From Euglena gracilis (Eukaryota): a stretch of 64,000 nucleotides of DNA. The notes beneath the pieces were generated by a model. That model was not told where the DNA came from, ran no database searches, and worked only from the letters and a program-made list of their open reading frames with translations. The position numbers were made by a program, and so were the translations under genes. Below, piece after piece: positions 6,116 to 40,296 of this stretch. Each line of letters opens with the position of its first letter. The stretch's first letter is position 1. The stretch spans positions 24,130,954 through 24,194,953 of the forward strand of contig CP154954.1 in the NCBI GenBank assembly GCA_039621445.1. Direction: 5' to 3'.

Positions 6116-6119
6116 AAGT

Positions 6120-7990: not shown

Positions 7991-8059
7991 GTGAGGAGTT
8001 TTTACTTCAGAGCCATGATGGGGACCACACCATCAAAAGAATTTTCAGACTTTTCAAGA

Positions 8060-8500
8060 CAGAAAGCTACACTTTGGTGAAGCCAGTGAAGTCAAAAGCT
8101 TTGGATGAATTGAAGATTTCTGAGGGTCAGATTTGCATTGATCTTTTTACAAACCACCTGAACCACACCCAGTCTTTGTACATGACAAAAGGGAATTCAG
8201 CCTACAGGTATTCATGGGAAAGGTTGTTGTGTGACATTGGTGCTTCCAAGTTTCTGTGGGCAAACCCCCCCTTCAGCCAACTAAGCAAAGTGGTGACAAA
8301 GTTGTGCATTGAAGAAACAAAAATGGTCCTGGTGCACCCAGACTGGGTGGACCAGTAGTGGTCCCCCCTGCTGGAAAGGGTGACTGTGGCCAGGGTGAAA
8401 ATTTCAAGTGGGGTTCCCTTGTTTGTGGGTGACAGGTGCAAAAAGGTGCTGCCCTCCCCCCTGTGGAACACTTTTGTGAGTGTGGTGGACACTGTGCAAT
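8060..8500 (+). CDS. Element A DNA N6-adenine methyltransferase (Dam-like, DIRS-type) domain; in-frame TAG at 8356-8358
   Basis: IDLFT..LN, SAYRYSW, LWANPPF (NPPF at 8263-8274), KVVTKL, MVLVHPDW..Q*WSPLL: order and spacing of the DIRS/phage Dam motifs. Confidence 0.8.
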
Positions 8501-18900: not shown

Positions 18901-19522
18901 AAATTGAAGCCCTTGGAACGCCCTATCTACTGGTGTATAGATTTCACCACAACTCCACGCCCAGCCCGAGATACGGGCGTTTTTCGGTCCAAATGGCCGT
19001 TTTGTACACTTTTCCCACTGTTCGACTCAGCCGTTTTCGGCCAAAAAAGTCGAGAAAAATCGTAAAAAATTTCTTCGCCGCAAACCATGTTTTTTGGCCT
19101 CCCGGACCCGGAAAAAGTGTTTTTGAGCCGAAAATGAGCGTTTTTCGACCCGCCAGAGTCCCGTTTTGGGCCGCCAACCCATTGACTTCGGGTCAAAACC
19201 GGGTCAAAAAAGTCGAAAAAAATCGAAAAAAATTTTTCGCCCAAAACCATGTGTTTTGACCTGTCAGACAGATCAAAAGTGTTTTTGAGCCAAAAAAGAG
19301 CGTTTTTTAACCGCCAGCGCCCCGTTTTTTGGCCGCCAACCCATTGTTTTTGGTTAAAACCGGGCCAAAAAAGTCGAAAAAACTCGAAAAAAATTTTGCC
19401 CCAAAACGATGATTTCTGGCCTCCCTGTCCCGGAAAAAATGTTTTTGAGCCGAAAATGAGCCTTTTCCCCGGGCCGGGCCAGGGTGGTCTTCCAAGGAGC
19501 TCAGCTCTACGTCACACCCTGG
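15901..19522. repeat. Tandem array of three ~1.1-1.4-kb units with internal A/T-tract subrepeats
   Basis: Units start ggattatcgat(g/a)tgacc at about 15901, 17075 and 18437; each ends near gagctcagctctacgtcacaccctgg; internal ~120-bp subrepeats (aaaaaagtcgaaaaaaatcg). Confidence 0.85.
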
Positions 19523-20501
19523 TTGAGGTGGATACACGTACTGGCACTGGTGCGTCCTGGGGATAATCCCCAGAGACGGTGTACTGAGACAATTGCTCCT
19601 GCGCGGGATAATCCCACCGTGGCATGCGCTCAGGGGACCGAAAATTACTTTCTTTCACACGTGGGTGTTCACTCCGAACAGGTGCTTCCCCTGTCTCTTC
19701 CTCGGGTAATCCGCGGAGTGAGCACAAAAATGTGCAGTGCAAGTGCCAACTGGTGGTACTTGCCGTGCTACCTGTGGCGGGACTTTCACGCCCAGGTCAC
19801 GCATGGTAATGTTGTGTACCAGGCAGCCGTAAGGCCATGGTACTGTGTATGTAGGTATAAGCCTACGGCCAGATATAGCTCTGAGCACCATACACAGTAC
19901 TATGCTAGGTGGTATTCCTAAAGATGGCCAACGGCCTGAATTAGGAATACCTAACCCTTATTCTGGTTCTCCTCTCCATAGGTGGTATTCGTATTCTTAT
20001 TCTTTTGTTTTCGTGTTTCATTAGCCCAAAAGGGCACATCAAGATTTGAAGATTTGAACTCCGAGTGGAGTACACTTGTGGAACTAGTTTCCCAAGAAAC
20101 CTTCTGGTTTGCCTTGTGCTCTGCATAAGCCCAAAGGCAATAAAAACTAATAGTTAAGTGAAAGACTTTCTTTTTTGTTACTCTCCTGGTTCTGTTCCCA
20201 CGGGAGGGTGTAAGTAGGCCGACAGGTAGTGGGAATAGAGTCAGGGGACGTACACTTGGTAGCAGATTCGGTTTCTTTCCTACGCCCCTTCTCCCCCTCT
20301 TCTTACCAGGTGACTTCAAACAGTGAGTGGTGCTGAGCCTATTGGCTACAAAGCATCCACCAGCGGTTTGGAGCCAACTTCTAAGCACAGGTACAGGCTT
20401 CAGCAGGTTGTGGGCAGTATAGGCTGCCACATCCTTCTAAGATTGTTTCTTTGCTTACCTTTTGGGGTTACTTGTGCTTATTTCTGCAAAAAAATAAAAA
20501 T

Positions 20502-23500
20502 ATGCAGATCTCAAACACCAACACATCAAAAGCTTTGATTAGTTCTTTGAGGAAGTTTGGTGAAGATTTGTCGCAGGAGTATATGCTCCAACCCAGGTGT
20601 GTGGCCCTATCTGGGGCAACTCCCAGCTCTCTTGAGCGTCCCCCCACCCAGTGGTTTCCAGCTCTATTGAGCACCCACCCGCCTCAGTTTTCAGCTCTAT
20701 TGAGCATCCCCTTACCGTAATTTTCAGCTCTACCGAGCATTCCCCCACCCCGCTTTCCAGCTCTATCGAGCATTCCCCCCACAGCTCTGTCGAGCAACCC
20801 GCAACCCAAAGGGTGCCACACCTAACGGTGTCCTGCTCTATCGAGCATCCCCCCACAGTGGCCAGCTCTATCGAGCAATTACCTCCAACCCCCAGCTCTA
20901 TAGAGCATTCCCCCACCGTTCCCAGCTCTATCGAGCATTCCAACGCCCAAAGGGTGCAACACCTAACGGTATCAAGCTCCATTGAGCATTTCCCCACCCA
21001 GGAGTTTCTGCACCTAACGGTGTTTGATTTAGGCGATAACCCCGCTGCGCAATGGGTGCAACGCCTATCGGCGTGTGGCTCTATCGAGCAACCCATCGCC
21101 CAGTGTGATTATCAGCCTTTGCTGCAAAGTCAGGCACCTTGTTGTACTTCCCTGCATCAGGATGTCTCAACGGTGCCTACAGGCACAATTGACAAACAAC
21201 CCAGCGATGTGGTGCACCGCATGCTGGCATGTCCCCCAAAGGAGGTCACACCCGCACAAAACTCTCAGAGACTGAGCGAAAAGTTGTGTGAGATGCAATC
21301 CAGCAATGATGCGGCATTTTTGCACATGCAACATAGTTTGCAAAATTTGTTTACAAAAGTGGAGCCAATAACGGCACTTTTTGAGCACAAAAGTCCTGAT
21401 ATGGGAGCTTTTGTTACCTTGAAGCAGTTCGATACCCTAGCTGCTGCATTCCAGGAAGCGCATCAGTGCAATATGCAACTGAGCCGTGAATCAGCACATT
21501 TTAACCATATGCACCCAACCTGGTGAAGGTTTCGCTTCCAGCATTTATGTGCAGCAATTGGAGAAAAGACTTTCCCGGTTGGAGCTAAAATCATGCAGGT
21601 GTGGTGAATATTCTGCTGAAATAACAAGTTTTTACGCCCATATCGCGAATATCGCAAGCAGGCAGGATGCTTCTCACCAACGGTGGCAGAATAACATTGT
21701 TGACATCCAAACCGCAATTGCGGAGTTGCAGAACCGCAATGCGGTACCATGTTCACATAATTTTGAAATTTCAACGATTTTTCCACAGTATGCGTGATGA
21801 AAATCACCAAGTCAGGAAAAATTTTTGTGACGGTCCGATACGGACCGAGGAAACAGTGCATCAGCAAGTCAAAAACTTGCAAAAAGATTTCTCAGCGCTA
21901 TCCGCGCAAGTTTCGGTGTTTTTGGAACAGCCAATGGCTGAAAATGTGCGGAATCCGCAAAATACCCCTCCTTCCAAACCATCTCCACAACTGGAGTCTA
22001 TTTCCGAAGCTGTGCACACTCTAGCTGTGCGACTACGGGAATTGGAAAGTGGTTTTGGAAAATTCTCGCAAGATTTCCGTTCTTTTTCTGACAAAATCCC
22101 TCTTCTGGACGTTATGTCCAAACACCGCAGGTGTATTAAGCGTTTGCAGGAAGAAATTGGTGCAATCACCGATCATCTGAAAATTCTCGAAATTTGGAGA
22201 AAATTTTTCGTGACCTTACAGAAAATTTGGATCAAGTACACGCACAATTGCGTTTTTTACAACAAAAACCCGATATGGGTGTTGTAGGCACACTTGCCGC
22301 AGATTCCAGCTCCAAAAGCGCTAAAAAGCGCACCTGTGGCAGAGCCTATTGGCACATTGCCACACAATTACAGTTCTGCTCATGCAGTCGTCCCTCCCCC
22401 AGCGGTACCAGTCCCAATGGACCATTCTTTGGATGATGGGGTTGGTTTTCAAGAGAAAGACAAGCGAAACCCTCAAAGAAATCGAAAAATTTGGGAATAT
22501 GAACTTTGTCGCGATATGAGCCGCACTCCCGCACATGGTATTTATCCTGAGAGGCATCATCATCACCATTCGCGCATTCGCCATTCACCAAGTTTGCAAG
22601 GTACCTATGGTACACCAAGTGGAATATTGAATGCGCATTCGCAAAATACACCCAAAAGTACACTTGGTGCAACCACCGAGGTACCCGCGCATGATGCGGT
22701 TTTGCGCCCAGGCCCATCCTCCTTGAATACCACCGAAGGGCCATGGGAGTCTCAGAAAGATATCAAAGGAATCATCGCTATCGCTAAAAAGGTGAAGCCC
22801 CAATGGGATGGTGACCCCACAACGTGGAAACAGTTTTGGCGTGATTGGGAATATTATTGGGATCTGAAAGGACCAACCCATAACCAAAACCCAGAGGTAA
22901 TCAAAATGGAATTCATAGATAGTCTACCAAAAGATGAAAATGAACGCGCCATACAATTGGTCATTCGCGGGCGCATTTCTTTCCAGGATTTGGTTGAGCA
23001 ACATGCTTCATCATGTTCCAGTTTGGTTACCAGATTAACTCTGGAGAAAAAACGGCAATATGCCCCCCATGACCGAAAATGGAGGTCGATAGACCTATGG
23101 TACTCAAAATGGCTTTCTTTGGCAGCTGAAGTAGACGAGGTAGGTGAAAACAAAATCAAAGAGCAATTTGACGCAGTATTAATGCACTTTATACCCAAAC
23201 TCATCAAAGATATTCACCGCGAGGAACTCGCCGGACATATTTTGACGCTCGATGAGCGGTGGAACTATGTTTCCAAACAGTTGAAGCTATCACAGCTTCT
23301 AGGACAAATCCAGTCGGCTTATACGAGCCACCCCACAGCAAGAATATCCGCTATACAAGTCAGTTCTGTGAAAAAAGTGTCACGCTTATCACATACCGCT
23401 ATAGCGGAATCCAAATTGCGCAATTCGCGCTCTTCAGAAGAATTTTCGGACAAATTTTGCTTTTTGTGTAACAAAAAGGGTCATATGTCTTGCCATTGTC

Positions 23501-23970
23501 CAAATCCCGCAGCGAGAAAGCGCAACACAAGCCCAAGAGGATCAGCCTCATCATGCAGTTCTCGTTTTTCACAAAATGCGCATTCGCAAAATTCAAAATA
23601 CCGATCACGATCAACGTGTTCACTGTGCGGATCCACCAACCACCACCCCTCACCCAAATGTCGCTATGCGACTCCTCCCCACTCAAGCCATAGCCATCGC
23701 GGTATGACTCGCAGTTTAAAAGATCATACTTCAGCCAAAATGCATAAGGTAGGTCAACGAACAACCTCTATTGAGGATTATCACCCGGCTTCGGGCAGGG
23801 AGGGGGATGATACCCCACGTAACCAAAGGGATCATCCCTGCTTTAGCGCTCATAAATTCAGAGACGTATATGCGTCAAGAAAGTCAATGGCTGATATGGC
23901 CACTGCTTCGGATTTTGATTTTGTCGGATTTTGTCCCCGCTCAAAATTCTGCCACATTTTTGACATATAG
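20502..23970 (+). pseudogene. gag: Element C long Gag-like ORF, broken (SSIEH repeats, coiled-coil region, capsid-like region, zinc knuckles)
   Basis: KPQWDGDPTTWKQFWRDWEYYW and CFLCNKKGHMSCHC; homologous to B1 gag at 36152-39307. Confidence 0.8.
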
Positions 23971-24180
23971 ATAGTTTTTGTTTTTAACGGTTGTTGATGC
24001 ACTAGGGGATACCCCATGTGTGTCACTTGTGGTTGAATGGATTTACGCTCCAAGAATGCACACAGCTCCGCAAACTTCTTTCCCCCCCAAATCTTCCACT
24101 ACTCATCATTTTTACATACCGTTTTCGATGACAGCAATACCGTTTTCTACAACACCAACACCGTTTTCAACTCAGGGGTA

Positions 24181-24657
24181 CAGTCCCTGGGCGTAAATTT
24201 CCCCCCCCCCCTAGGGAGGGGTTTTTGGGCTCTTGACCAGGGGGGGGGAAATATTCGGCCGTTTCGGGCACTTCGTCCCGTCCCTTCTATTCTTTGAAGC
24301 CATGAAGCCGACCGGGATTCGGAATTCATTTGCCGTATGTTGTGGGGTTGTTATGGTATATTCCCGAAAACCTCTGTTCAGGGCGGTGGGTCTTATTGAT
24401 AGATACATGCCGGGGATGGTTCAATGGACAAAAAAACCCAAAAGATGCCAAGTCCTCGACCCAGGGGCCATGCAAGTGGTGAAGCTGTGCAGCCCTTGGA
24501 TGTACAAAAAAAAAACCCACCTGCCTTAGCTGTTCCTCTGGGGCTGAAGGGGGGGGGAAAGTTTTCGCCCGTTTCGGAGCCTTTTGCAAAACCAGGAAAA
24601 TTCCCAAATTTCAGGGGGGGAAATTTTCGGGGGGGGACAATTTACGCAGAGGGACTG
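24181..24657. mobile_element. Tc1/mariner-pogo-type MITE
   Basis: TIR CAGTCCCT..GCGTAAATT / AATTTACGC..AGGGACTG, flanked by TA on both sides; homology to family B resumes directly after it. Confidence 0.85.
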
Positions 24658-26342
24658 TAAAAAGAAAGTGCCGCCCCCCCCTACCCACCGCATATCCACA
24701 AACGTTCCACATGCGGTAGGGGTAACAAGTAGCTTAACAACCAATCGTTTCACTGGGTTCCAAGACGAAAGCCCTAAGGCCTGAAATTAGAATGGTTTCG
24801 AGTAGTCTCCCAGCTGCTTTCATTTTTCGTTTTCCACCAGGTTTGTCGATTGCAGGCAATCCTGTACACCCCCCGCAGCTAAAATTCGCATACAAATTTT
24901 CTTACACACTCCACCCCCCCAGACCAACATGCGCGACAAGGACAACTACTCAGCACCTCACCCAAAGGTGTGCACTCTAGGAGAAATTTCCACACAACCA
25001 ACAACCAAACACAAAAGGAAATAACTGAAACTAAACTAACCACCACCCTCGCGCCCATGGCGCCCCCGCCACTCAAGCGCCTATGGCCCCCCCACACGCC
25101 TTTGGCGCCTGCCTGCGCATCAAATTGTGTATAGCACAGACGCTGCGCCTATGGCGCCACCCACCCTCGCGCATAGCACAAATCTTGCGCATAATGACCC
25201 CCACCCCCCCCCGCCCCATAAGGCGCCCCCCAAAAACCGCGCCGAGGTAGCTCACACCCCGCGCATATTGCGCTCCCCACGCGCATACCGCGCATCTCGT
25301 GCATATTGTATTGCACACCGCGCCTAGCGCACCCCTCCCCCCCGCGCATATTGCATTGCGCAGCCAGCAAACAACCCCCCCCCCCACAAGATGCGCCCCC
25401 CCGCCCACCCGCGCATAGTGCCAATCTCGCACAATTGCGTATATCTTACAAACGGGTATCTGCCAAACCCAACCATATTATTTTGGGAATAAGTCCCAAA
25501 GATGTTTGTGTACATATTTCACAATGGCATTTTTGTTGTTGATTTGCAAACCACATGCTCAAAATGCAGATTTGGTTTACTTAAGCAACAAAAGTAGCCA
25601 TCCCCCCTTCTTTGACCACGAACTTGTTGGTCAAATTGGCGAACACCAAATGTGTTTGGATCATTCAAGCACACAGTTGCGCTCACTTCAAAGTTATTTG
25701 CAAAAACACAAGGTGTGTGATAAGTTTTTGGGATACATTGCAAATACTGCATTTTTCCCATGAACTTGCACAGATTTGTGAAGAACAGCTATTTTGTGAA
25801 TAAAATTTCTTATTGCAAAAGTGAATCCAGATAGGGAAATAAGTTGAATTCCTTGAGAAAATCTGCAACATAGTTGCCCCCCCCCCAAAAAAAAAGAAGA
25901 AAATTCATTCAAACATGCATTTTTTGTGGACTTGACCACTTAGCCTTAGGTCTGTGTGACCAATACACCCGATGATGTGCAAGGCCTATGGGCCATTACC
26001 CACGTGGTCCATGGGTCCATAGGACCAATTTGCACAAATTGCAAGGACCAAAAGGACCAAAGGTCCACAAATCCATATTATAAAGTTTAAAATCCATAGG
26101 ACCTCAAAAAATGGCACAAAAAGCCATATTGCATTGCTGAAAGTGGCTGAGTTGGCTAAAACAAGCCAAAGAGGCTAGTTTTATGCAGATTTGCACAAGT
26201 GTCACTTTGGCATACCCTCAAAACCACCACAAAAAGCTTCAAAATTTCTGGCACCTCGTAACATGAGGTTTTGACTGTATGTAGTAGTGCCTATGAGATA
26301 GGAACCAAAAGTTGTCTTTATAGAATAAATTATGGAAGCTTA

Positions 26343-27946
26343 CCGGGGATGATCTAATTCCGGAGGTTTTTAATCCGGACGCTCAAATTCCGTTGGCCCA
26401 AAGGCCGGACCGGAATTTGTGATGCTGAACTTCGCGTTTTTTAAATTAGGCCTCGCCTGCTACAAAAAAAATGCCAGAAAGATGGGAAACAGAGACCAAC
26501 AAGGTTGAGCGTGGATTACATGTAACTAGTCTAAAGTTTCACAGAATGCTTCATCCCAGTTGATTCCTTCGTTAGGTGAAATAGTATTTTCGTGTTTCGG
26601 GCTGAGTGACCTGAGTCTGTTTCCCTGCCAGAACGATAGCCTGGGTGATTGAGGAGAGTTCAGAGTTGGTCCAGTTCACTGAAAGTCGATTTTGCAAATT
26701 TGAGTTTTTCGTCCTTTGCAGTGACAGGAAGCCAAGCTGCAGCCTGATACCAGTTTTAATCTGATTCCTCCCCAGTGAACCGCAGAAAACACCTCTGGTT
26801 GACCTTCCAACCTTCAAAGATCGAAAAGATATGGCCAGTTCAAAGTTATGGCATGTTGAGTGAATGATGCTCATTTAGGTTCATTTTTTGGTTGAGGAAT
26901 GTGAGCCACAGGCATTTAGTTAAGTTAATTTTCTCTCAGCCAATTCACTTGTTGACTTTAAAATGCAAGGGAGGAGACAGACTTGAGGGAGGAAGGTTTT
27001 CCTTCTTTTTTTCCCCACAGGACATTGAGATTGAGACAGAGTTAATTTCAATTGAAAGAGTTCACAACGTTGAATTCGAATGGAAAGAAGTTTTGAGAAT
27101 GACCAAATGTTTTGAGCACCTGAAACTTTGAAAAGTGGCAGTGAAGTCAATTGAAGGTGTGCCTTTTTTATTCGGCTGAGAAGCAAGTTCCGGCAAGCAA
27201 GGATTCCACCTTAATTGATTTGCGCGGCCTTGTGTTTTCTTCCTCCGTGTTTCTTTGTGCGTTAGTTTTAGTTTTTTGTAGGGTTTTCTAATGGACTTTT
27301 CCAAAAAATGAAACTTCAACTTCTAAGTCAACTCCCACAGGTTGAAATGGACTTTTTTGAAAACCCGGTTTTGGCGCAAGGAGGCCGAATGCCCGAAATG
27401 TTATGCAAAAACATCTGGCAAAAAAATCAGCTGTTATTTTTATGGGTGGTTTAAGCCTTTCAAAGGGAGGGGTGGGGGTTTTTGAGGTCAAGGAATCCCA
27501 ACAACCCTGTAACCAGCAGCCGAAACCAATTTTTTTTTGGATTCATTTACCCCCCCCCCCTAGTCGTATGACCACCCCTCATTTATGACCACCCCCCGGT
27601 CACAGGTTGCAGGTCATGGGGGTGTTATGACCACCCCCCCCCGGTCACAGGTTGCAGGTTGCGAAAAATTTAACAACACCTCACGGACAACCGCCGCCTC
27701 GTTTATGACCAGCCCCCGGTCACAGGTTGCAGGAACCCGGTCATACGACTAGGGGGGCGGCACTGACGACGAACTCGCGGGGGAACCAAAAAAATGTTCC
27801 AAAAAGGATGCCACGCTTTTTGCGGTCGTTTCACGAAATGCAAACCTGCGTGCTCTGGGCGGTGTAACATATCGGCGTCCGTTTGAAATGTCGACCGAAA
27901 TTAATGTCGTCCGGAATAAGAGCCGCCGGAATTAGGTCGTCCCCGG
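26343..27946. mobile_element. Non-autonomous TA-flanked TIR transposon (pogo/Tc1-like)
   Basis: 21-bp TIR ccggggatgatctaattccgg / ccggaattaggtcgtccccgg (2 mismatches), TA on both sides; faint INWDE remnant on the minus strand near 26560. Confidence 0.7.
27555..27757. mobile_element. Small MITE-like inverted-repeat element
   Basis: Perfect 19-bp IR cccccctagtcgtatgacc / ggtcatacgactagggggg; three internal ggtcacaggttgcagg repeats. Confidence 0.7.
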
Positions 27947-30900
27947 TATAGCCAAAGCTCACTCACACAGGCAAAAGATCAAAGACGTATCTCAGCGCAT
28001 GTAGCTGGCCGATAGGCCATGTTACCCCTCGTTCGAAAGCTCGTTCGATGAGCCGTCCAGCGGTGCAAACAGATCGCTGTAACTCTGCACGGTACTCTTA
28101 TTTGAGGAGATCGTGAAAAATTGAATTAAGCCCAGCCAATCCGGCCAAAAGCCAAATTATGGGCCAGATCTTGTACGATCGTGTACCAGACTGGCAAATC
28201 AGCCTGAAAGGCTTCTATACTGTTCCCCACAACGTTTCTGATGGCTAATTACCATTGGTTACCAGATGGGCTAATGGCCATTTTTTAGTACCTTTGGCAG
28301 CATTCTGCCCATTACCCCCTCTGTATGGGCTATTAGGCCTGGTACAGTTCAGAGGGCTATAGCCCACAATTTGGAGCCATTTCGACTCACTAGAATCATT
28401 TTTAGGATTACTTATGTGCAAATTTTCATTCAAATCATTGATTTTCTGCAATTTTTGGTGATTTTCCCCTATTCTGGCACTCATATCCCTAATGGGAGTG
28501 ATCTTGAGGCACTATGCCAGAGTGGAATGCAAAGGGATATGCTGATAATGGCAATTTTTTCTTTGCTCAAGATGTCATAGACATGTTTTACCTGTATTTT
28601 CAAGCGTATGTTTGCTTTTTTGCGATATTTTTGCACAATTTTAGAGCTTTTTGGGTGATGTGGTGTTATTAGACACCCAAATCCCAAAATCTATATACAA
28701 CAGCAAACATGCAGTGTTATTGGACACTCCAAACAAGCACTATGTGCACTTGGCACATTTACAGTCTTAAATGACTCAAAATGCAACAAAGTTGCACTTT
28801 TGGTTACAAAAATGCAACTCTCGACGCAGAATCGGCATTTATGCCCTAAATCCTGATAGGGATTTCCCTAAAAATCTGACAAAAGTCAGTATTTCTCAGT
28901 GGCATAGTCACTAATGATGAGATTTTGTCATGTTTGCAGTATTTTTTCCTGCTTACCACACCAATGGCATTCTTGCCCCACCCCCCTCCCCCCGCTTCAT
29001 TCAGTGGGATCCCCTTACCGATATAATTCGGAGGACCCAATGGTCATCATCTGCAGCACCAATGGTGTCATTCTGCAAGGTTTATAAGAACCATAGCTCA
29101 GAAATGGTGAAATCCAGCTTTTTTTTCTTGTGCGCAATATGGGGATACCCACAATTTTTCATAATCACACTTTGCTTTTGGAGGTATCATGGCTCTGATT
29201 TTACTGAAAGGTCCAGAGTGATGAATTTCACCGCACTGGAACCATGTCACATCCTTTTATGTGCATTCACAGTTCATTCATTTGCGGTTTTTCAAAGTGG
29301 TATAAGCCACTCCAACCACAGTTGTTCTGTGAATTGGCAGCAGCCTGCCACGACTCCGCATTTTTTCTGCGGTTGTATACCTCAGTATGATCTTTTGGCA
29401 ATATGCCGAATTTTTTTGATTCGGGTATACACCCAGTAGTATTTTTGTGCCATGCATATTCCGCAAGGCAATGTTTCTCGGCGATAAAGCCTACCCCCCC
29501 ATTATTTTTGGCTAATGCCAACCGTTCAGCCTACAGGCTGCACACCCAAGACACAACTGCCAAATCTACAGTTTTTATGGCTACTGCCCGCTATTATGAG
29601 GTATACGCCTCTGGGGATACCCCATCGACAACATCGTGCTCGCGCTGCATTGTGAAGACTTCACAGCGGTATATGCCGCAGTAAGAAGACGCACAGCGTA
29701 CAGCGCGCACACCGTAATAATAGGGCCAACTTGTTACTTTTCGGACTTAAGGCCCCCATAAGACTGCCAGACAGCAAATTTTCTTTATAAGGTCTTTAGA
29801 CCAGCCCCCCACTCCACTCCCCTTTCCCCCCCCGGGAAAAATCGCTGTCGCCGGCAGTTGGTTTTGTAAATAGGGTTTCTTCCCTGGTCAGGTATGACTG
29901 GCCAGGTGCCCCCTCCTTCCACACCCACCCGAGAATTCGTTTTCCGATCACGGAATACACCACCCCAAGTGCCATAGGCACACCCAAACCTGGGAGGATG
30001 GGATTTCTGGAAAGAAAACCTTCCAGCCCCACTTTCCAAGTGGGCTCTTCCACTTCCACCCCTTTGCCGCAATAAGTAGACACCGCATAAGCGGTTAACT
30101 ACTTTTGCGCGTTCCTGCGTTATTTCGCACTTTCCTTCCCACACCCCTGGTGACAGGAGAACCAAAAGCCGCATACGGCTCTGTGACAGGTCCCCGTCCC
30201 CAGGACTGTGTCCGGCATTCCGACTGGCCTGGTCCAGTAGGGAAATCAGGCATAGCCCTGGGAGGGGGATGTGTACCAGGCAGCCGTAAGGCCATGGTAC
30301 TGTGTATGTAGGTATAAGCCTACGGCCAGATATAGCTCTGAGCCCCATACACAGTACTATGCTAGGTGGTATTCCTAAAGATGGCCAACGGCCTGAATTA
30401 GGAATACCTAACCCTTATTCTGGTTCTCCTCTCCATAGGTGGTTTTCGTATTCTTATTCTTTTGTTTTCAGGTTTCATTAGCCCAAAAGGGCACATCAAG
30501 ATTTGAAGATTTGAACTCCGAGTGGAGTACACTTGTGGAACTAGTTTCCCAAGAAACCTTCTGGTTTGCCTTGTGCTCTGCATAAGCCCAAAGGCAATAA
30601 AAACTAATATTTAAGTGAAAGACTTTCTTTTTGTTACTCTCCTGGTTCTGTTCCCACGGGAGAGTGTAAGTAGGCCGACAGGCAGTGGGAATAGAGTCAG
30701 GGGACGTACACTAATGTCCGTGTAATACACCAAACCGGTCATCATCGCCTGGGTGCACATACACCACAGGGCTGGAGGGGTATTCGCGATGTTCAAAATT
30801 TGACGACAGTGGTCATCCCACAATACCTGTGTGAGGTGGTGTGGTGCCGGGTTTGCGCTCATACGCGTCACCCGGTTCATCTTCTCCGCCGTGCGGTGGA

Positions 30901-31292
30901 ACATCACACCCGCATACGGTGGGAGGCGACGAGAGCCTGATGGCTGAGATGATCGCGCTTCCGCGGGCATCGGGGTCAACCTGGTACTGCTGCTGGCTTC
31001 AGGGTTTCCCTGAGCCGCAGTCCGTGCAGGTGGCTGCGTACCGTATCGGTACGCATACTGGTCAGGTGGAGGGTGAGTGGTGGGGTGGTAAGGCGGTCCT
31101 CCGCCTGGCTCCCTTCCACCGGGCAGCATGATACTGCCCGGGGTCGGTGCGGTGGGATGGTTAGGTTGTTGGTTGTGAGGTGGTAAGGGTAACCGCTGGA
31201 CTATTGTCTGGTGAAAAGAATTCTGCGGAAAGAAAGAATGATAAGGATCAATAGTAAAAGAAAAGAAAACAACATGGGTTTCCCATGCGTTC

Positions 31293-32400
31293 TCAAAAAC
31301 TTGTCATGGAAACATCAATGTTATGCTTCTTGTTCCACAGCTTCCAATCTTGCTGGACATACCCAACAAACCTGGTTCCTGGCTCCCAAGGGTCCTCCTC
31401 GGGCCCATACCCTTTCCAGCGGACCTTCCAAAGGTGCATACCTTTGTCGATTTTGTGATCGAAAGTTTTATCGACTACAAAGTCGTCCGTCTCAGGTAAT
31501 CTGGAACGGGGCTGGAAGTGTAGGCACGGGATGGGTTTCCCATCCGGCGGAGACAAGTGTGGCTTGAAGTCGTCCATATGAACGTCCTCAACACCATTCG
31601 GTAATGCAATCTTGTATCGCCCGCTGGTACCTAGTCTTTCTAGGATTTCACAGGGGCCGAGCCAAAGGGGGTCCAGTTTGGAAGACTGCATGCGAGTACG
31701 GCTATTCCGCACCCACACGCGGTCACCGGGACTATACACAGGTGACTTGAAAATTTGCAAATACGATTTCCGTTTAGTTGCATGAATATCAGTGACTCGC
31801 TTCTGGACTGCAGAACGTAGATTTTCTACTTCCGCAAACCAGGTCTCGCAACTGACACTCGTTCGGGCGGGTCTCTCCAAAGGGAGATCCCCTATGGCCG
31901 GAGGGTCCCGTCCGAAAACTAATTTATAAGGGGAGTGGGGCAAAACCAACCGTGTTAAGGTATTGATATAAAACAAAGTCCATGGTAGCACTGATATCCA
32001 GTTGCTGCGCGAGTCAGCCAGTGAAAGGCGAAGCATATTCACGACGGATTTCACGGCTGCCTCGGCTCTACCATTGCCTTTGTCGGTATATAATGGAAAC
32101 ATGTTGCTCAATTCCGAGTAAACCGCACAAAGTGGTGAAAAACCTTGAAGAAATCAAATGGTCTTGATCACTCACAATTTCATTCGGTAAACCCATCAAA
32201 CAGATACATTTCTCCAAAAATGTAGTTGCCAAACTTTGGGCAGTCAACCCTGACTTCTGGCATGGAAAGGCTACAATGTACCCACTCAGCCTGCAGACGA
32301 CAACAAAAACGTAATCGTAAATTTTGTCGTCCGTTCCTTTGCACGGTTCTAATTCCAGAAAATCCATGCAGAGGTCCTTGCTTCCACGTCGGCATCTTCC
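31293..32400 (-). pseudogene. pol: Element B1 integrase core plus chromodomain (HHCC region deleted)
   Basis: CMDF, SDQD, GNGRAE; WLGPC; FVVDK..WKVRWKGYGPEEDPWEP. Confidence 0.9.
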
Positions 32401-32539
32401 ACGCCCTGGTGCGACCAGGAATAGTTGTGAAACGGGAAAAGAATCCAAAAGATTGCCCGCACCGTCGTTTCGACGTGCGTACTCGTCAGCTTCATGACTT
32501 CCATGAAAAGTCGTGTCTCCCTCATTCGGGTTCCCAGGG

Positions 32540-33950
32540 AAATACCAAGGGGCCCGACTGAGCGAATCCGCTACTTTCTGTGTGTGACCAGGGGTATAAA
32601 TAACCAAAAGGTTGAATTAACTCAAGAACTCATGCCATCTGCAACGCCTTCCGACCGATGACATGGCCTTGTTCAAATCCTCGGTGTACCAGTGTTGGAG
32701 ACTCTCATGATCGGTCTTGACGAGGATCTGGACGAGGCTGCTGCCGACCAAGCTTCGAAATTTCTGGAGTATAAGCACGATTGCGTAGGTTTCCTTCTTG
32801 CGTATACTTCACTTAACTTTACCTTTACCGTCGTCGCCCTGTAGCTTTCTGCTGAATAAAGCCACAGGTCGGAGTTCGTTCGCCGCGTTTTGCTGGCTAA
32901 GAACTCCGCCAACAGCGTAATCGCTGCTGTCGACTTCCAGGACATATGGTTTGCACGGGTCCGCGATTTCGAGGACAAAATTCTCTAAAAGCAACACCTT
33001 GATTCTCTCATGGGCGTCGCGCATTTGGTCATTCCAAATGACTTTGGTGTTGTCAACAGCCCGTTTTTGAGCTGTTTGGTGAGGGGCACCACGATTTTGG
33101 CGAAGTCCCTGACATGTATCACGTAGTAATGGGCTAATCCCAAAAATCCTTTGAGGTGAGTAATCGTTTTGATTACCTCAGGGGTCCATTTCTTCGTGGC
33201 TTCGAGTTTGCTCGGAGCGGCTTTCCGCTGTCCATTGCTGAGGATGTGGCCGCAAAATTTTATAATCTCGCGAAACAAATGCATTTTCGCGCCTTTCGCG
33301 AAAAGCACATGTTTTTCAAAAGAGGTTAATACCGCGCAAACATGGTGAAAGTGTGTGTCGAGGACATCCTCGCTTGATTTTGCGGATGATGGTGGTGTTC
33401 CCACCAGCACATCATCAATGTAGACAATGGCACACGGTAAGTCGCGTAAAACCCATTGAATCATGCGTTGAAACATGCCTGGGCCATTCTTAACACCCAT
33501 GGGGAGTACCGTCCATTGGTACACACCCTTGGATCTCACGAATGCCGTGTATGCTTGGGAGTCAGGGTGTAAGTGCATTTGATGAAAACCGTCCTCCAGA
33601 TCGAAAATTGACCACAACCGGTTTTCTGATGGTTTGGTGATCAAATCCTCGTTCAGGGGGAGCGGGAAGGCACCATCCCTTGTCTGGGAGTTCAGGTACC
33701 GGTAATCCAGCACCAGTCTCCATTTCTCCGGACCTGAGGGGTCTGGGGGTTTAGGAACACCAAATGCCTTGGATGTCCACTCGCTTTTTGACGGTACAAT
33801 CCACTTGCGCTGAAGAAGCTTCTCAATCATTTCATTGAGAGCTTGTTCGCCTTCTCCCGAACAACGAAAAAATTTTCGGTGCATTGGTTTGGCTCCTTCC
33901 TTAAGCTCAATTTTGCAAACACCGAACGGACAGCGTCTCGCGGGGTCATT
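32540..33950 (-). pseudogene. pol: Element B1 reverse transcriptase and RNase H, frameshifted
   Basis: WRLVLDYRYLN, DLEDGFHQ, PMGVKNGPGMFQ, YIDD; EVDSSDYAVGGVL, ADSLSR. Confidence 0.92.
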
Positions 33951-34119
33951 GTCGCACGCGTATACTGGACTTTCCAGCACACCGTGAAATTCACGGGTAA
34001 TACGCGAACAGAATTCTTCTGACTTAGGATGCTGACCTGCACTCCCGATGACCACGGAAACCGCCAGGGTTTCCCTGGGGTTACCGAGCTTCCTCGTCAC
34101 CGCGAATGCGGACGTTCCG

Positions 34120-34540
34120 AATGCATCGAAGAAGTATACGCGAAAAATGATTTCTTGCAAAGGTGGTAATATTTTACCACAAAAAAATTCAAAAATCGGT
34201 ACATTGGTGGGTAAATCCCACCAATGAAAACAGACGGACGATAATTGGGTGAGCCATTCCGCTTCCGGAATGATGGGTATGAGAATAACTCCACGGGATT
34301 CATCCCGCAGAATTTTCTCAACCGCACATTCGATAAGTTTTGGAGGGGGGTGCATCCATAACACCGTATCACCCCAAATTTATCAAATGCGTTGGAGTGT
34401 TGTGACCAATGACGTGGCAAACGGGCTTGTGCATTGGATGAAAAGGCATCGATTTCCAATGCCAAATCAAAGGAATCAGCCAATGTCGCGATTTTGGAAA
34501 ACCATCGTTCCAAAATGCGATATTGACCAAAATTGAAAGC
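34120..34540 (-). pseudogene. Element B1 Dam-like methyltransferase domain (frameshift near 34375)
   Basis: EIDAFSSNAQARLPRHWS..SNAF, then LWMHPPPKLIECAVEKILRDESRGVILIP..EWLTQL; same motif series as element A, with HPPP at the NPPY/F position. Confidence 0.75.
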
Positions 34541-35359
34541 ATTCCATACGCGTTTCGCGTATTCATGCACCCGATTTCCGGGTTGTAGTGAAGAAACACA
34601 ATGAATGGATCCACAAACATGCGGGCTGTGTTCCACTACCTCAGTCTGGGGTTTTCCCCATTCCGCATCAAATTCGTACCAAGTGTAATCGGGATGGTGG
34701 TTGGGAATAACGCTTTTCGCGTTTCCAAACAACGAGGCTAATCCGCGTTGTTGGAGTACTCGGTGTATCTCCGCGCATTGCGGGCTACAACCAAGTGTAT
34801 CCTGGGGCGTGGATTCCGTTTTCGGAATTGTGATTAGTGTCGTTTTTTGAAATAAACATCCACAATCGAAATCCGATTGGGTGGAAATTATCCTGCAGTG
34901 CACACACTGGAAGGAAGTGTGGTGGTGTGACGGGTGTGCGTGTAAGTGGCTGTCGGTGGCATTAGCCGATGCGTCTTGTACAGGTGTGCCTGGATTCGGC
35001 ACAACTGGTGGGAAACAGAGTTGTGGTGTTGCTGGGCGACTACTCGACACCGTGATCACTGCAGGCCTTTGGGCTTTCGTCTTGTAACCCAGTGGAACGG
35101 CGGGGGTACCGCTACTCGCTTGCCCTACCTCATGTGGAACGCATGTAGGTGTGTCATTGGGTAGGGGGGAGGCTTTTTTCCGTACCCCGGGTGTGGAAAA
35201 CGGTTGTTGGTGTGGTGGATAACGGTGTTGCCATTGTGGGTAACGGTGTTTGAAAAGTGGTGGTCATCATAGTGGATTCCAACGGTGATGGTGGTTTGGG
35301 TGGCATTGAAGTGTTGTGTGCTGTGCGCAAACCGTGGGAGTGGCAATCCACAACCAATC

Positions 35360-35720
35360 GGTGCTGGCGTAACAGTTGGTATCCCAAAATTACGTCAGAC
35401 CCGTGAATTACGGACTCGTAACCCCAAATATTGGTGAAGTGTTGTAATTGCGGGGGGTGTGTGAGTGATGCTTGGGAATGATGGGCAAGAGTATCTCGAG
35501 CACACGTCCCAAATCACCACCGCACATGGGGGTATTATCCGCGGTTGTAATTTTGATCTGTTTCTTGGCGCTTACCAAGAGAGGGGTCGATATCAACCCC
35601 AACCGAAAGAGCAGTGCAACGCGACAACCAGTGTCAATTAAAATTTTAACTTTGGTTGAGAAATTTTGAATGCGGATTTCCGCTTGGACGAGTAATTTCA
35701 TTGGTGGTACGCAAAGTGAA
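35360..35720 (-). pseudogene. Element B1 aspartic protease
   Basis: KILIDTGCRVALL; DVILGY after a frameshift. Confidence 0.85.
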
Positions 35721-35999
35721 GGGTCTGGCGGAAATACGTTTGCATGCCAACTTTCCATGAACCCTTTCCTACTTTGCTCAGCCTTCCGATCGGTACTGTG
35801 GAGTGGGGGGTAGGGGACCCGAAATAATTCCGGGTACCGACCGTGAAGGCGGATGGGCAGGGGGAGCAAGGTTGATCAGGTCTTACCTCCATCTGTTCAT
35901 CAGCCCAGAGGTCCGTGCCCTCGGTCCTCGGGCTCCCCTACTCCAAGTCAGAACCGGCCGCATAGCCGGCAACGGACTTTTTGGTCGAATAGATGGAAT

Positions 36000-38900
36000 T
36001 CAATGAGCGCACCGCCATTCGGGCCTCATTAAATTCACCGTCCGAGGTCTCATCCCCCTCCCTGCCCGAAGCCGAGGTGTCCTCCTCCAAACAAGAAATC
36101 TTGAAAGCGACTTTTTGCCGGTTGGAGGAGTTACCACGGTCCTCGCGGCGCTTACCGCGATGTCCATAGCCGGGCCGGGGGGAACGAGATCAGGGACATT
36201 TGGATGAGCGGTGGTCTTTGGAACCGCAAAGTGAACAACGGGATTTGTGGCGGGATTCCGCATAAGGGGGGAACGGTACTCCGCTCTTCCGTCAAACCGT
36301 CGTGGAGAACGGGTTTCCCGTCGACCATGACCGGTGTACCGGGGTTCCCTCGCTGACTCGCGCGAAGAGGGTGATCCACTTCGCGAACGAGATCCTGAAG
36401 AATGGCGATTGAAATCCTGTTTCGGGTAGGGGGACCAGGTGACCGACCGCGAGAAGGACGGGTTTCCCGACCATCACGTGATGGTGACTTGGACCTACTA
36501 CCGCTAAAACGGTTCTCCGAAGTAGGTGAAACTCCCGATTGACGTGGAAATGCCGAGGAACCCGATCCCCGTGAGGAGGTCGAGCCCCTTGGGCTTCCAA
36601 TACGCTTTCGCGCGTCGGGATTCGGGCATTCCCAAGACACGTAACCAGATTTGTTGCACAAAAAGCACAGTTTATCCGTGCGTTGGTCCGAACAACGCTG
36701 ATTCCGCGTCTTCGGTCCCGTGGTGGGTGATCTCGGTGACATGGGTGCTTTTTTCAACGCATCGGCCGCACCCGCGGGGATTCCCGCGGTGGGATGCGTT
36801 TGGAAAGCGGACTGTATTTGTCCCAAAATTTGTGTGAGCTTGAGTTGCTTTGACACATAATTCCAACGTTGGGCAAGGGTCATCTCATGCCTCACCAACT
36901 CCTCGCGATGGATATCCTTCACGAGAGATGGTGTGAAATGCAACAAAACCGCATCGAATTGTTCGCACATTTGCTTCTCGCTAAGTTCATCAACTTCGGA
37001 AGCAAGTGCTAACCATCTGGCATACAAAAGGTCAATGGATTTCCATTTGCGATCCGATGGCTCGCATTGTCGCCATTTCTTCTCCAGGGTAATCCTGGTG
37101 ACCAGACTTGAGTTGGTTGAAGCGTATTGCTCAACCAGGTCATCGAATGACATGCCATTACGTATCACCAAACTTCGTGCGCGTTCTCGCTCCTCCCTCG
37201 GTTGCTAATCGATGAATTCCATCTTGACTACCTCGGGATTTGGGTCTTGGGTGGGTCCCTTAAGTGCCCAGTAGTACTCCCAGTCCCGAAAAAATTGTCT
37301 CCGTTTGGTTGGATCCCCGTCCCATTGGGGTTTCACCTTGTTCGCGATTACCATGGTGCCCTTGAAGTCTCTCTGAGTAACCCGCTGACCCTCGGTGGTA
37401 TTCCAGGGGTTTGGGTCCGGGTAATTCTTAACACCAAACGCGTTTCGCGGATTTACCGCTCCAGCTGTACCCCGTGCAGGATTTCCCGCACCAAGTTTAG
37501 GGGTGACAGTATTTTCCTGCTGGAATTGCGGAAAAGTGGTTAAATTCTCCCGGTGGGGCGGGTTTCCCACCGAAAACCCGATGGGTGATCTGGTATTCCA
37601 GAACCCGTTGGTGGTTGGTATGATCGCGAATGCGACACATGACCAATACCAGGTGTGGGGTGTTGGCTCATTCCTCGCACAAGGTTGGAATGTTGAATTT
37701 CTTGGTGGAGACTCGAATTTTCCAGCGGTGGATCAATTTACTTGTCGGAAATGTCCTGTGAAAAGTGGGTTTGTGATGTGGGCAAATACAAAGATGGTAC
37801 AATTCGAGTTTTCGCGGGTGGTTGTACCAAATTCGCGGTGGATGTAGTAATTCCTACTCCAGAAACGGTAATTTGATAACGCCATTCCGGGACATTTGGA
37901 ATTCCAACCGCAGCGCTTACCGCGGTGGGTGGTGGCACAACCGGTACCGGAGTGGATATTGTATCCAAACTCGCAGACAAGTCATGCACCGTTTCTTCCA
38001 AATGTTCCACCAACTGGAGTTGACCGCAAATACGGTCAACCTCAGTTTCCAAATGCCGAATGCGTTTGCGGTACCGGGAAAAATCTTCCAAGTGTGGCAA
38101 CTTTTCAGAAACCAAGTGTAAAGCTTGGACAAGCTTTCCTTGGGACTCCTCCACATTGCCCCGCAAGCGCTTTTACCGCATTTGAGACTGTTTGCATTTG
38201 GTGAGGTGGCTTGGTGGAGGTTTCCGCGGTGGTTCGCGAATTTTCCGCGGTTGGCTTTTCAAACAACGCAGAAGTTCGTCCATCCAACCGTGAAACCTCA
38301 TCTTGCATGGATCGCGCATTCCGCTTCACAGATTCCTCAAGTTGGAGCAAACTTGTGCAAAATGCTTGCAAGGTTTCCTTGTTGTCACCAAGCATTTTGT
38401 CATAAAATCAACGAAATTCCGGTGACTCGGATATCCGAGTGCGCGAAACATTGGGAAGTGAGCGAATTTCCGCTAATGTGGTGGACAAGAAGGTACAACG
38501 GGTTTGCAATTCCTAAATAGCGGCTTGAACACCACTAATGTCGGGAATTAGCTTGGAATGTGCGGAAATGTGCTCCTGCAAACCGACAACGGTGGCATTA
38601 ATACCGCCAATGTCCGTTTGCATTTGTTGTTGCGCGAAATCGAACCGTTGTGCGCAATCCGCGATTTTCGCGTTCAAGGGGGGTAATGCATCCTGATTTG
38701 CGGCACAATGGCAGGACTTCTGCTCCAAGTGTAGGATTCGTTCCTCTAAAAGCTGGATTTGCGTACGGGGAACAAACTTTTCTTGCACTTTCGGCTGAAA
38801 TTGCGTCAAATGCTCTATTTCCGAGCAAAGAGGCAAAATCCGTTGTTGGGCTTCTTGGAAGGAAGTGGTGAGTGCGGCAAAATGCTCAACCGCAACAAAG

Positions 38901-40286: not shown

Positions 40287-40296
40287 TCTGCTACCA
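40287..40296 (-). promoter_or_regulatory. PBS of element B1, tRNA-iMet-like
   Basis: TGGTAGCAGA directly after the 5' LTR on the minus strand. Confidence 0.8.

What the first reader, a model, noticed from the sequence alone, without database searches (positions are those of the whole stretch)
34120..34540. A second, highly divergent chromovirus family has the same MTase domain in the same slot, with HPPP for NPPF
Seen: family B shares no visible nucleotide similarity with element A (different LTRs, gag and RT motif) yet has IDAFSS..A.LPRHWS..NAF..LWMHPPP.LI..AVEKI..GVILIP...W between protease and RT. Inference: an old, retained lineage feature rather than a one-off capture. The altered motif IV suggests a non-catalytic nucleic-acid-binding role or changed specificity.
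Basis: partly seen in the sequence, partly recalled or inferred. Interest (0 to 1): 0.8.

Follow-up and report, generated by a model that had tools for sequence, protein, structure and literature searches.

The report
Degenerate Dam-like domain in a chromovirus
A decayed copy of a chromovirus-type jumping gene carries, between its protease and reverse transcriptase, a domain descended from bacterial-type adenine DNA methyltransferases whose catalytic motif is lost in its whole sub-lineage; the kind of element was described in 2026, but this looks like an inactive, repurposed version of it.

Summary
On the minus strand at 34112-34555 a Ty3/gypsy chromovirus ("B") encodes a ~145-residue Dam-like (Pfam PF05869-type) domain between protease and RT. 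It is split over two frames by a break near 34376-34384, and motif IV reads HPPP (34341-34352). A profile built only from outside relatives finds both halves (E 1e-30, 2e-19) and also element A's NPPF domain (E 3e-7). The hhalign probability between the B-type and A-type groups is 99.8%.

The domain lies upstream of RT in 36 of 36 relatives that have both. Its tree and the RT tree agree in most subclades, so it is an inherited lineage feature.

None of the 20 nearest relatives has a canonical [ND]PP[FYW] motif (17 of 20 lack the aromatic residue, 7 of 20 start with His), whereas more distant relatives are mostly NPPF/Y. Contigs from four sequencing runs show HPPP as the majority state in this family. 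They also show the frame break in most copies.

Best reading: a Dam-derived pseudo-methyltransferase kept for a non-catalytic role (inference, about 0.55).

Dam domains in chromovirus-like LTR elements were published as a preprint in May 2026, so this is a new variant of a known kind.

The parts
34112..34555 (-). Dam-like (PF05869-type) methyltransferase-derived domain of element B, read in two frames
   Evidence: A1 profile hits to both halves. Blastp of both halves to 20 and 66 relatives. Alignment.
34385..34555 (-). N-terminal half of the domain (helices plus the 'IDAFSS' strand at 34436-34453), in the frame of ORF 35263-34097
   Evidence: E 1.7e-19, profile positions 1-58; 63.6% identity to P0001 residues 260-336.
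34376..34384 (-). Place of the -1 frame break inside the domain
   Evidence: In four runs only 18-27% of the laid contig depth shows a one-base length difference here; the rest shares the window's broken state (table 4).
34112..34376 (-). C-terminal half of the domain (motif IV strand, helix, 'GVILIP' strand, 'WWDLP', 'FRVYFFDAF'), in the frame of ORF 34379-32985
   Evidence: E 1.3e-30, profile positions 58-144; 70.5% identity to P0001 residues 340-427.
34341..34352 (-). Motif IV position, reads H-P-P-P where canonical relatives read N-P-P-F/Y
   Evidence: In laid contigs the only listed majority differences in these codons are at 34344 and 34347, both synonymous Pro (table 3).
34556..35263 (-). 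Poorly conserved spacer between protease and the Dam-like domain
   Evidence: The 100 residues upstream of the domain average 11.6% identity among 9 B-clade proteins.
35408..35875 (-). Protease-like ORF (contains L-I-D-T-G-C)
   Evidence: Translation. tblastn of the N-terminal parts of P0002 and P0003 (35758-35468). No Pfam hit at E<=1, so the assignment rests on motif and position.
36152..37204 (-). gag-like ORF with a CX2CX4HX4C-type zinc knuckle region
   Evidence: Translation. 66.5% nucleotide match to the gag-like ORF of the nested element at 22707-23553.
33240..33758 (-). Reverse transcriptase core
   Evidence: Pfam RVT_1, E 8.2e-22, residues 208-380 of ORF 34379-32985.
32383..33069 (-). 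RT connection / RNase H region, in a new frame and with in-frame stops
   Evidence: tblastn of P0001-P0003. ORF boundaries.
32077..32475 (-). Integrase core
   Evidence: tblastn of P0002 and P0003. The relatives carry precomputed PF00665 and PF17921.
31296..32141 (-). Integrase C-terminal SH3 plus chromodomain (chromodomain about 31377-31481)
   Evidence: Pfam SH3_Tf2-1, E 9.7e-8, and Chromo, E 4.2e-6 (27.0 bits, cutoff 25.1).
19813..30712 (+). Younger LTR element (444-bp LTRs, 98.2% alike) nested in the 3' end of B. It has gag-like ORFs but no pol and no Dam-like domain.
   Evidence: Self-blastn. Only a 71-residue match to P0001. No profile hit.
19521..19812 (-). Continuation of B's 3' end beyond the nested insertion
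   Evidence: 19521-19812 plus 30716-32374 are contiguous in the second B copy at 61774-63756.
8041..8355 (+). Element A's homologous domain (NPPF), for comparison. It is followed by an in-frame stop at 8356-8358.
   Evidence: Pfam Dam, E 0.001, in the same ORF as a Pfam protease. A1 profile E 3.2e-7. hhalign.

Best explanation
Element B is a dead, nested-into copy of a Ty3/gypsy chromovirus. Its pol polyprotein carries, between protease and RT, a ~145-residue domain descended from the prokaryotic/phage Dam family (Pfam PF05869). This is the same module known from DIRS elements and from the 'DAM-LTR' retrotransposons described in 2026.

Shown here: homology, the class I adenine-N6-methyltransferase fold (modelled on the nearest intact relative), the conserved slot, and co-inheritance with RT.

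In B's sub-lineage the catalytic tetrapeptide (N/D)PP(F/Y/W) has become [N/H]PP[I/L/V/A/S/P]. A second conserved Asn has become His, and the domain evolves about twice as fast relative to RT as in canonical relatives. It still stays far more conserved than its flanks.

Inferred: the aromatic residue that stacks on the target adenine is gone, so the B-clade domain most likely no longer transfers methyl groups. It is kept as a pseudo-enzyme, as METTL14 (EPPL) is beside METTL3. The retained role could be a nucleic-acid- or partner-binding or structural module of the polyprotein during reverse transcription or integration.
For: Homology:
- The A1 profile (10 outside relatives) hits both halves at E 1.3e-30 and 1.7e-19.
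- All 10 of 10 A1 members hit PF05869 (best E 2.2e-7; P0001 2.7e-5, 24.3 bits).
- 16 of the 120 listed RT relatives carry a precomputed PF05869 hit.
- hhalign of the B group against the A-type NPPF group gives 99.8%, E 7e-29.

Fold (AF2 model of the P0001 domain, pLDDT 95.1, pTM 0.89):
- Best structural neighbours are PCIF1/CAPAM cap adenosine-N6 MTase (Z 10.8, rmsd 2.8, 127 aligned), a METTL5-like protein and METTL5 (Z 10.3, 9.4), KsgA/DIMT1 and T4 Dam (Z 8.6).
- Foldseek's top hit is PCIF1, E 1.7e-3, prob 1.0.

Slot and inheritance:
- The domain lies 66-272 residues upstream of RT in 36 of 36 proteins.
- The B clade is monophyletic on the RT tree (10 rows, SH-aLRT 95), nested among rows with an aromatic fourth residue.
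- B-clade monophyly is not rejected on the domain tree (p-AU 0.748).

Motif:
- Among the 20 nearest sequences, canonical [ND]PP[FYW] occurs in 0 of 20; 17 of 20 are non-aromatic and 7 of 20 start with His.
- The 10 of these that were not used to build the profile give 0 of 10 canonical.
- More distant bins give 32 of 60 and 59 of 110 canonical.
- Column 41 is His in 17 of 20 nearest, against Asn in 45 of 60 in the next bin.
- His at the first position goes with loss of the aromatic residue: 25 of 31, against 29 of 138 for Asn.
- There are at least 6 changes of the aromatic state on 38 tips.

Constraint:
- Among 9 B-clade proteins (36 pairs) mean identity is 11.6% upstream, 48.1% in the domain, 40.4% in the linker and 74.8% in RT.
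- The ratio of domain to RT divergence is 2.15 in the B clade and 1.27 in canonical relatives.

Family level:
- In contigs of 4 runs laid at 80% or more likeness, the only listed majority differences in the HPPP codons are two synonymous ones.

Precedent:
Against: - No biochemistry exists. According to the 2026 preprint (Results read), even canonical NPP-bearing retrotransposon DAMs gave no 6mA in E. coli, so 'loss of activity' has no positive control.
- Asn is retained in 12 of 20 nearest relatives and an aromatic residue in 3 of 20. Changed specificity is therefore not excluded.
- The structure is of P0001 (about 67% identical), not of the broken window copy. SAM-binding residues could not be mapped.
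- The window copy is a pseudogene. Most laid copies share the frame break inside the domain (73-82% of depth), so current selection on the domain in this genome is doubtful.
- Identity ratios use non-independent pairs.
- The trees are 'quick' searches with many open forks, and element A sits on a very long branch.
- Read laying showed only the 40 best-supported of 87 variant rows, so minority variants at the His codon cannot be excluded.
Confidence: 0.55

Rival explanations
1. The B-clade domain is still an active methyltransferase with a non-canonical motif IV and altered substrate or specificity, for example RNA:DNA hybrids during reverse transcription or another exocyclic amine.
For: The fold and most conserved columns are kept: 23 invariant columns among 10 sequences, of which the window copy keeps 22 (by eye). 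The Pro-Pro core is kept in 17 of 20 and Asn in 12 of 20 nearest relatives. The domain is clearly constrained (48% identity against 11.6% upstream).
Against: The stacking aromatic residue is missing in 17 of 20. The one precedent checked for its loss is an inactive enzyme, METTL14 (PMC5023411). The domain evolves faster relative to RT than in canonical relatives (2.15 against 1.27), which looks like relaxed constraint.
Confidence: 0.2
2. The domain has no function of its own in this lineage. It is a decaying relic carried along, or a mere spacer in the polyprotein, and HPPP is neutral drift.
For: The motif was lost repeatedly, with at least 6 changes of the aromatic state on 38 tips. The domain diverges faster than RT. 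Most copies in the runs carry a frame break inside it. The window copy has several further frame breaks and in-frame stops.
Against: A functionless stretch would be deleted or become unalignable like the upstream spacer (11.6% identity), yet the domain keeps 48% identity and 23 invariant columns across proteins whose RTs are 62-88% identical. It is present in 36 of 36 relatives. The AF2 model is very confident (pLDDT 95).
Confidence: 0.2
3. The similarity to methyltransferases is a chance motif resemblance, or HPPP is a private mutation of this one dead copy.
For: The raw ORF halves give no Pfam Dam hit. A PDB sequence-profile search gives only chance hits.
Against: Profile E-values of 1e-30 and 2e-19. 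hhalign 99.8%. 10 of 10 members hit PF05869. The fold search is led by adenine-N6 MTases. The nearest relative has HPPL, and the majority of laid copies agree at the HPPP codons.
Confidence: 0.02

Closest known systems
[quoted passage not shown]
   Same: A Ty3/gypsy-type LTR element with a chromodomain and a prokaryote-like Dam (PF05869-type) domain inside pol. The domain is a small five-strand MTase core. It is inherited within LTR lineages.
   Different: The preprint states that the Asn-Pro-Pro triplet and the following aromatic residue are conserved in almost all DAMs. Here the whole B clade lacks the canonical motif (0 of 20).

Their screen used hmmsearch at E<=1e-5. B-clade domains score near or below that (P0001 2.7e-5 against Pfam alone), so such elements may have been under-sampled.

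The text I read does not give the protease-to-RT slot ('protease' occurs 0 times). Which of their five lineages, if any, B belongs to could not be tested: no named sequences were available and the supplements are closed.
DIRS1-like retrotransposon MT domain (PMC3266345 and PMC3783388, passages read)
   Same: The same Pfam family (Dam, PF05869), and function unknown in both.
   Different: In DIRS elements the domain follows RT-RNase H, and the element uses a tyrosine recombinase. Here it precedes RT, and the element has a DDE integrase with a chromodomain.
METTL14, the inactive partner of METTL3 (PMC5023411, passage read)
   Same: An adenine-N6 MTase fold whose motif IV lost the acidic/amide-PP-aromatic signature (EPPL; compare HPPL, NPPL, HPPP here) while the fold is kept. 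It works as a scaffold rather than as an enzyme.
   Different: A different MTase family (MT-A70). This is an analogy of mechanism only. No partner subunit is known for the retrotransposon domain.
PCIF1/CAPAM cap-specific adenosine-N6 methyltransferase (PDB 6irw/6irx)
   Same: Best structural neighbour of the modelled domain (Z 10.8; Foldseek E 1.7e-3). That PCIF1's own motif IV is NPPF is recalled and comes from no call.
   Different: 9-13% sequence identity. PCIF1 is a 480-residue, RNA cap-specific cellular enzyme. Fold similarity alone shows no shared function.

Membership tests
Dam-type N6-adenine methyltransferase domain (Pfam PF05869) | Profile match at or above Pfam's gathering score | tested here: not met
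   The window's two ORF halves give no Dam hit at E<=1. The nearest intact relative, P0001, scores 24.3 bits against a cutoff of 28.1. Sub-threshold hits are nevertheless consistent: 10 of 10 members, best E 2.2e-7.
Dam-type N6-adenine methyltransferase domain (Pfam PF05869) | Homology to bona fide family members through intermediate profiles | tested here: met
   hhalign of the B group against the NPPF group gives 99.8%, E 7e-29. 16 of 120 RT relatives have precomputed PF05869 hits at the aligned position. The A1 profile finds 3656 representatives at E<=1e-3, mostly NPPF/Y.
Dam-type N6-adenine methyltransferase domain (Pfam PF05869) | Class I SAM-MTase fold of the adenine-N6 type | tested here: met
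   Tested on the model of the P0001 domain, not on the broken window copy. pLDDT is 95.1. Neighbours are PCIF1 (Z 10.8), METTL5 (9.4), KsgA (8.9), T4 Dam (8.6) and E. coli Dam (7.8).
Dam-type N6-adenine methyltransferase domain (Pfam PF05869) | Catalytic motif IV (D/N)PP(Y/F/W) | tested here: not met
   HPPP in the window. 0 of 20 nearest relatives are canonical.
Dam-type N6-adenine methyltransferase domain (Pfam PF05869) | SAM binding and methyl transfer to adenine | not testable with these tools
   Needs biochemistry. The preprint reports no 6mA gain in E. coli even for canonical eukaryotic DAMs.
Chromovirus (Ty3/gypsy with chromo-integrase) | gag - PR - RT - RNase H - IN order, with a chromodomain at the C-terminus of IN | tested here: met
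   RVT_1, SH3_Tf2-1 and Chromo (27.0 bits, cutoff 25.1). Colinear tblastn of P0001-P0003. PR is assigned only by the D-T-G motif and position.
Chromovirus (Ty3/gypsy with chromo-integrase) | Flanking LTR pair | tested here: not met
   No repeat of B's 3' end (19300-19812, 30713-31400) was found in 37000-42500. The copy is 5'-truncated or interrupted, so LTRs of family B cannot be defined from this window.
DAM-LTR retrotransposons (2026 preprint) | Dam domain encoded inside the pol of a non-DIRS LTR retrotransposon | tested here: met
DAM-LTR retrotransposons (2026 preprint) | Placement in one of the five named DAM-LTR lineages; host encodes AMT1 | not testable with these tools
   No whole genome is held for the window. 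The host was not identified. No named reference sequences were available and the supplements are closed.
DIRS retrotransposons | Tyrosine recombinase, with the MT domain after RT-RNase H | tested here: not met
   The domain precedes RT in 36 of 36 relatives. The element has DDE-integrase and chromodomain parts.

The most novel reading that the evidence does not exclude
The selected function of Dam-derived domains in LTR retrotransposons is not methyl transfer. In this chromovirus group the catalytic motif was abandoned repeatedly (at least 6 changes of the aromatic state on 38 tips), while the fold, its slot before RT and its sequence constraint were kept. The B clade would then be a retrotransposon-encoded pseudo-methyltransferase, a binder of nucleic acid, of 6mA chromatin or of the host 6mA machinery. 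This would also explain why canonical retrotransposon DAMs were inactive in E. coli.
Probability: 0.3. Interest if true: 0.7.

Novelty: new variant of a known kind. Interest (0 to 1): 0.45.

Why it matters
Retrotransposon-borne adenine methyltransferase domains were proposed in 2026 to let LTR elements write 6mA on themselves and exploit permissive chromatin, but no activity has been shown.

This is a sizeable, conserved sub-lineage in which the catalytic tetrapeptide is gone while the domain persists. It offers a natural contrast set: canonical NPPF relatives against [N/H]PP-aliphatic relatives, both within one RT clade. That set can test whether catalysis matters at all for these domains.

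It also shows that Pfam-threshold screens under-count such elements. Only 1 of the 10 B-clade proteins had a precomputed Dam hit.

Tried and rejected
- No whole genome is held for the window, so a copy census by tblastn was impossible.
- Pfam on the raw ORF halves gave no Dam hit.
- A PDB sequence-profile search gave only chance hits (arylphorin, apolipoprotein).
- The metagenome locus scan with A1 gave one distant locus (L001, 32% identity). It was not used, so no DNA-level dN/dS could be computed.
- The protein atlas gave scores of 0.86 or less, which are leads only.
- Earlier scan findings: nothing by place, sequence or words.
- The search for homologous proteins on residues 1-120, near lengths, found none. 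No close family-B ORFs were therefore available to count HPPP directly.
- Host identification failed. Rfam and tRNA scans found nothing. A LINE-RT search gave only unnamed metagenome relatives nearby, and the named hits (plants) were at about 30% identity.
- A programmed -1 ribosomal frameshift at the break was considered. The sequence there is not a canonical X XXY YYZ heptamer in the zero frame, so I read the break as a defect (inference).
- No 5' LTR was found for B.

Full report
**What is there**

The window at 31.3-39.4 kb holds, on the minus strand, a decayed Ty3/gypsy chromovirus ("B"). Its parts, in order:
- a gag-like ORF (37204-36152);
- a protease-like ORF with L-I-D-T-G-C (35875-35408);
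- a poorly conserved spacer;
- the domain in question (34555-34112);
- RT (Pfam RVT_1, E 8e-22);
- an RNase H region and an integrase;
- a C-terminal SH3 plus chromodomain (Pfam Chromo, 27.0 bits, cutoff 25.1).

They lie in two reading frames, however. '..IDAFSS..LPRHWS..NAFDKF' ends ORF 35263-34097, and 'WGDTVLWMHPPPKLIECAVEKI..GVILIP..' opens ORF 34379-32985. In the nearest intact relative the two halves are contiguous. The copy therefore has a -1 break near 34376-34384.

By the coordinates of the tblastn pieces and ORFs, pol has further frame changes near 35.45, 35.25, 33.06 and 32.1 kb, and in-frame stops near 32.8 and 32.6 kb. Its 3' end is split by a younger LTR element at 19813-30712. 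No 5' LTR can be found. This copy is dead.

**Is it a methyltransferase-derived domain?**

A search with the RT-containing ORF found 124 longer relatives, nearly all unnamed metagenome or assembly proteins. Of the 120 listed, 16 carry a precomputed Pfam Dam (PF05869) hit, and those hits align with B's domain.

I built a profile (A1) from 10 of the closest outside proteins.
- It finds B's C half at E 1.3e-30, B's N half at 1.7e-19 and element A's NPPF domain at 3.2e-7 in the six-frame window, and nothing else.
- All 10 of 10 A1 members hit PF05869 at E<=1. The best is 2.2e-7; P0001 scores 2.7e-5 and 24.3 bits, below the 28.1-bit cutoff.
- Profile-profile comparison of the B group with an A-type NPPF group gives 99.8%, E 7e-29.

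An AlphaFold2 model of the P0001 domain (31-row alignment, pLDDT 95.1, pTM 0.89) has as best structural neighbours adenine-N6 methyltransferases:
- PCIF1/CAPAM (Z 10.8, rmsd 2.8, 127 aligned);
- a METTL5-like protein and METTL5 (Z 10.3, 9.4);
- KsgA/DIMT1;
- T4 Dam (Z 8.6) and E. coli Dam (Z 7.8).

Foldseek's top hit is PCIF1, E 1.7e-3.

PF05869 is the family to which the DIRS 'MT' domain is assigned (PMC3783388, passage read). That domain's function is called unknown (PMC3266345, passage read).

**Lineage feature or one-off capture?**

In 36 of 36 proteins that have both a long domain match and an RT match, the domain lies 66-272 residues N-terminal to RT.

I built 'quick' IQ-TREE trees of the domain (145 columns) and of RT (254 columns) for 38 rows.
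- They share most subclades: P0013+16; P0014+17+18; P0015+19+20+21+23; and the P0026-P0057 group.
- win_B pairs with P0001 in both trees (100 and 95).
- The B clade (10 rows) is supported on the RT tree (95).
- On the domain tree it is not rejected (p-AU 0.748; the constrained tree is even better).

This supports co-inheritance of domain and RT.

Element A sits on very long branches in both trees. A and B share the slot and are homologous, but a single capture for both is only consistent with the data, not shown. A and B share no detectable nucleotide similarity.

**The altered motif**

The exhaustive profile search found 3656 cluster representatives at E<=1e-3, 384 at E<=1e-10 and 30 at E<=1e-30. 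190 sequences covered motif IV.

| Bin by score to the A1 profile | n | Canonical [ND]PP[FYW] |
|---|---|---|
| Nearest, 175 bits or more | 20 | 0 |
| 100-175 bits | 60 | 32 |
| Under 100 bits | 110 | 59 |

- Of the nearest 20, 10 were not used to build the profile, and 0 of those 10 are canonical.
- In the nearest 20 the fourth residue is non-aromatic in 17 (I, L, V, A, S) and the first is His in 7.
- A second conserved position (column 41) is His in 17 of the nearest 20, against Asn in 45 of 60 in the next bin.
- His at the first position goes with loss of the aromatic residue: 25 of 31, against 29 of 138 for Asn.
- On the RT tree the aromatic state changes at least 6 times among 38 tips.

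HPPP itself is not the clade's state: P0001 has HPPL.

I laid contigs of four runs of coded 'organism A' on 33900-34800 at 80% or more likeness; 3,500-7,100 were laid per run. In the four motif codons the only listed majority differences from the window are at 34344 and 34347, both synonymous for Pro. HPPP is therefore the majority state of this family there. The caveat is that only the 40 best-supported of 87 variant rows were shown.

The same call shows that only 18-27% of the depth has a one-base length difference at the break. Most copies therefore share the frameshift.

**Constraint**

Among 9 B-clade proteins (36 pairs), mean identity by region is:

| Region | Mean identity |
|---|---|
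| 100 residues upstream | 11.6% |
| Domain | 48.1% |
| Linker | 40.4% |
| RT | 74.8% |

A1 has 23 invariant columns.

The ratio of domain divergence to RT divergence is 2.15 in the B clade, 1.27 among 10 canonical relatives and 1.49 in a second degenerate group (pairs are not independent). The domain is kept, but under looser constraint than where the motif is canonical.

**Mechanism**

Shown: a Dam-derived adenine-N6 MTase-fold module inherited in pol before RT, with motif IV degenerate across the sub-lineage.

Inferred (about 0.55): it is a pseudo-enzyme with a non-catalytic role. [quoted passage not shown]

Rivals are an active enzyme with changed specificity (0.2), a functionless relic or spacer (0.2), and chance or a private mutation (0.02, refuted).

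**Comparison with what is known**

A May 2026 preprint (10.64898/2026.05.21.726589; abstract, Results, Discussion and the screening Methods read) reports the following:
- Dam domains occur in DIRS elements and, for the first time, in Ty3/gypsy 'DAM-LTRs', including chromodomain-bearing ones (30.9% of DAM-TEs).
- Asn-Pro-Pro plus a following aromatic residue is conserved in almost all DAMs.
- No 6mA gain was seen in E. coli.

The kind of element is therefore already known. I did not find in the text I read a sub-lineage with a degenerate motif ('inactive' occurs 0 times) or the protease-to-RT slot ('protease' occurs 0 times). The supplements were closed and may bear on this. Their screen threshold (E<=1e-5) would miss many B-clade domains. 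Searches for earlier reports returned nothing else on non-DIRS LTR elements.

**Verdict**

This is a new variant of a known kind, of moderate interest.

The host was not identified.

Noticed in passing
34376-34384 (runs X1, X2, X3, X5): The frame break inside the Dam-like domain is not private to this copy. Only 18-27% of the laid contig depth shows a one-base length difference there. The bulk of family-B copies in 'organism A' therefore descend from, or were copied from, a broken template.
   Followed up: partly
5985-12955: Element A has short LTRs of 131 bp (5985-6115 and 12825-12955), 99.2% alike. It is inserted into another repeat that is contiguous at 56269-58476. Its Dam-like domain is cut by an in-frame stop at 8356-8358, and its RT by a frame change near 9771-9828.
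   Followed up: partly
19813-30712: A nested LTR element with 444-bp LTRs 98.2% alike. It has gag-like ORFs related to B's gag (66.5% nucleotide identity) but no pol, only a 71-residue match to the spacer of P0001. It looks like a young non-autonomous derivative.
   Followed up: partly
37738-39361 (-) and 20636-22287 (+): Long ORFs upstream of gag in B and in the nested element (282, 144, 296 and 220 aa). They are rich in Q, L and E and look coiled-coil-like. No family was assigned. They may be an extra 5' ORF of this group.
   Followed up: no
P0056, P0060, P0064: RT relatives that also carry a cytosine-5 DNA methylase domain (PF00145), one of them with a PHD finger. They resemble the dual-methyltransferase 'EpiLTRs' and the retrotransposon DNMTs mentioned in the 2026 preprint.
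   Followed up: no
P0043: The only named protein with the NPPF domain is labelled Genlisea aurea, a flowering plant. The preprint reports no DAM-LTRs in Streptophyta. This is either contamination of that assembly or an exception.
   Followed up: no
49456-52600 (-): A LINE-like RT ORF. Its close relatives (79% identity and lower) are all unnamed metagenome proteins, and the named hits are plants at about 30%. The host lineage seems absent from named protein sets.
   Followed up: partly
15901-19523 and 42818-43662: Two blocks of tandem or nested repeats. The first has units of roughly 160-1200 bp, 80-88% alike. The second is an array with an 11-bp register.
   Followed up: no
61774-63998: A second, partial copy of family B (integrase and chromodomain end only), 93.7% identical to 30716-32374. 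It runs off the window, so its Dam-like region cannot be seen.
   Followed up: no
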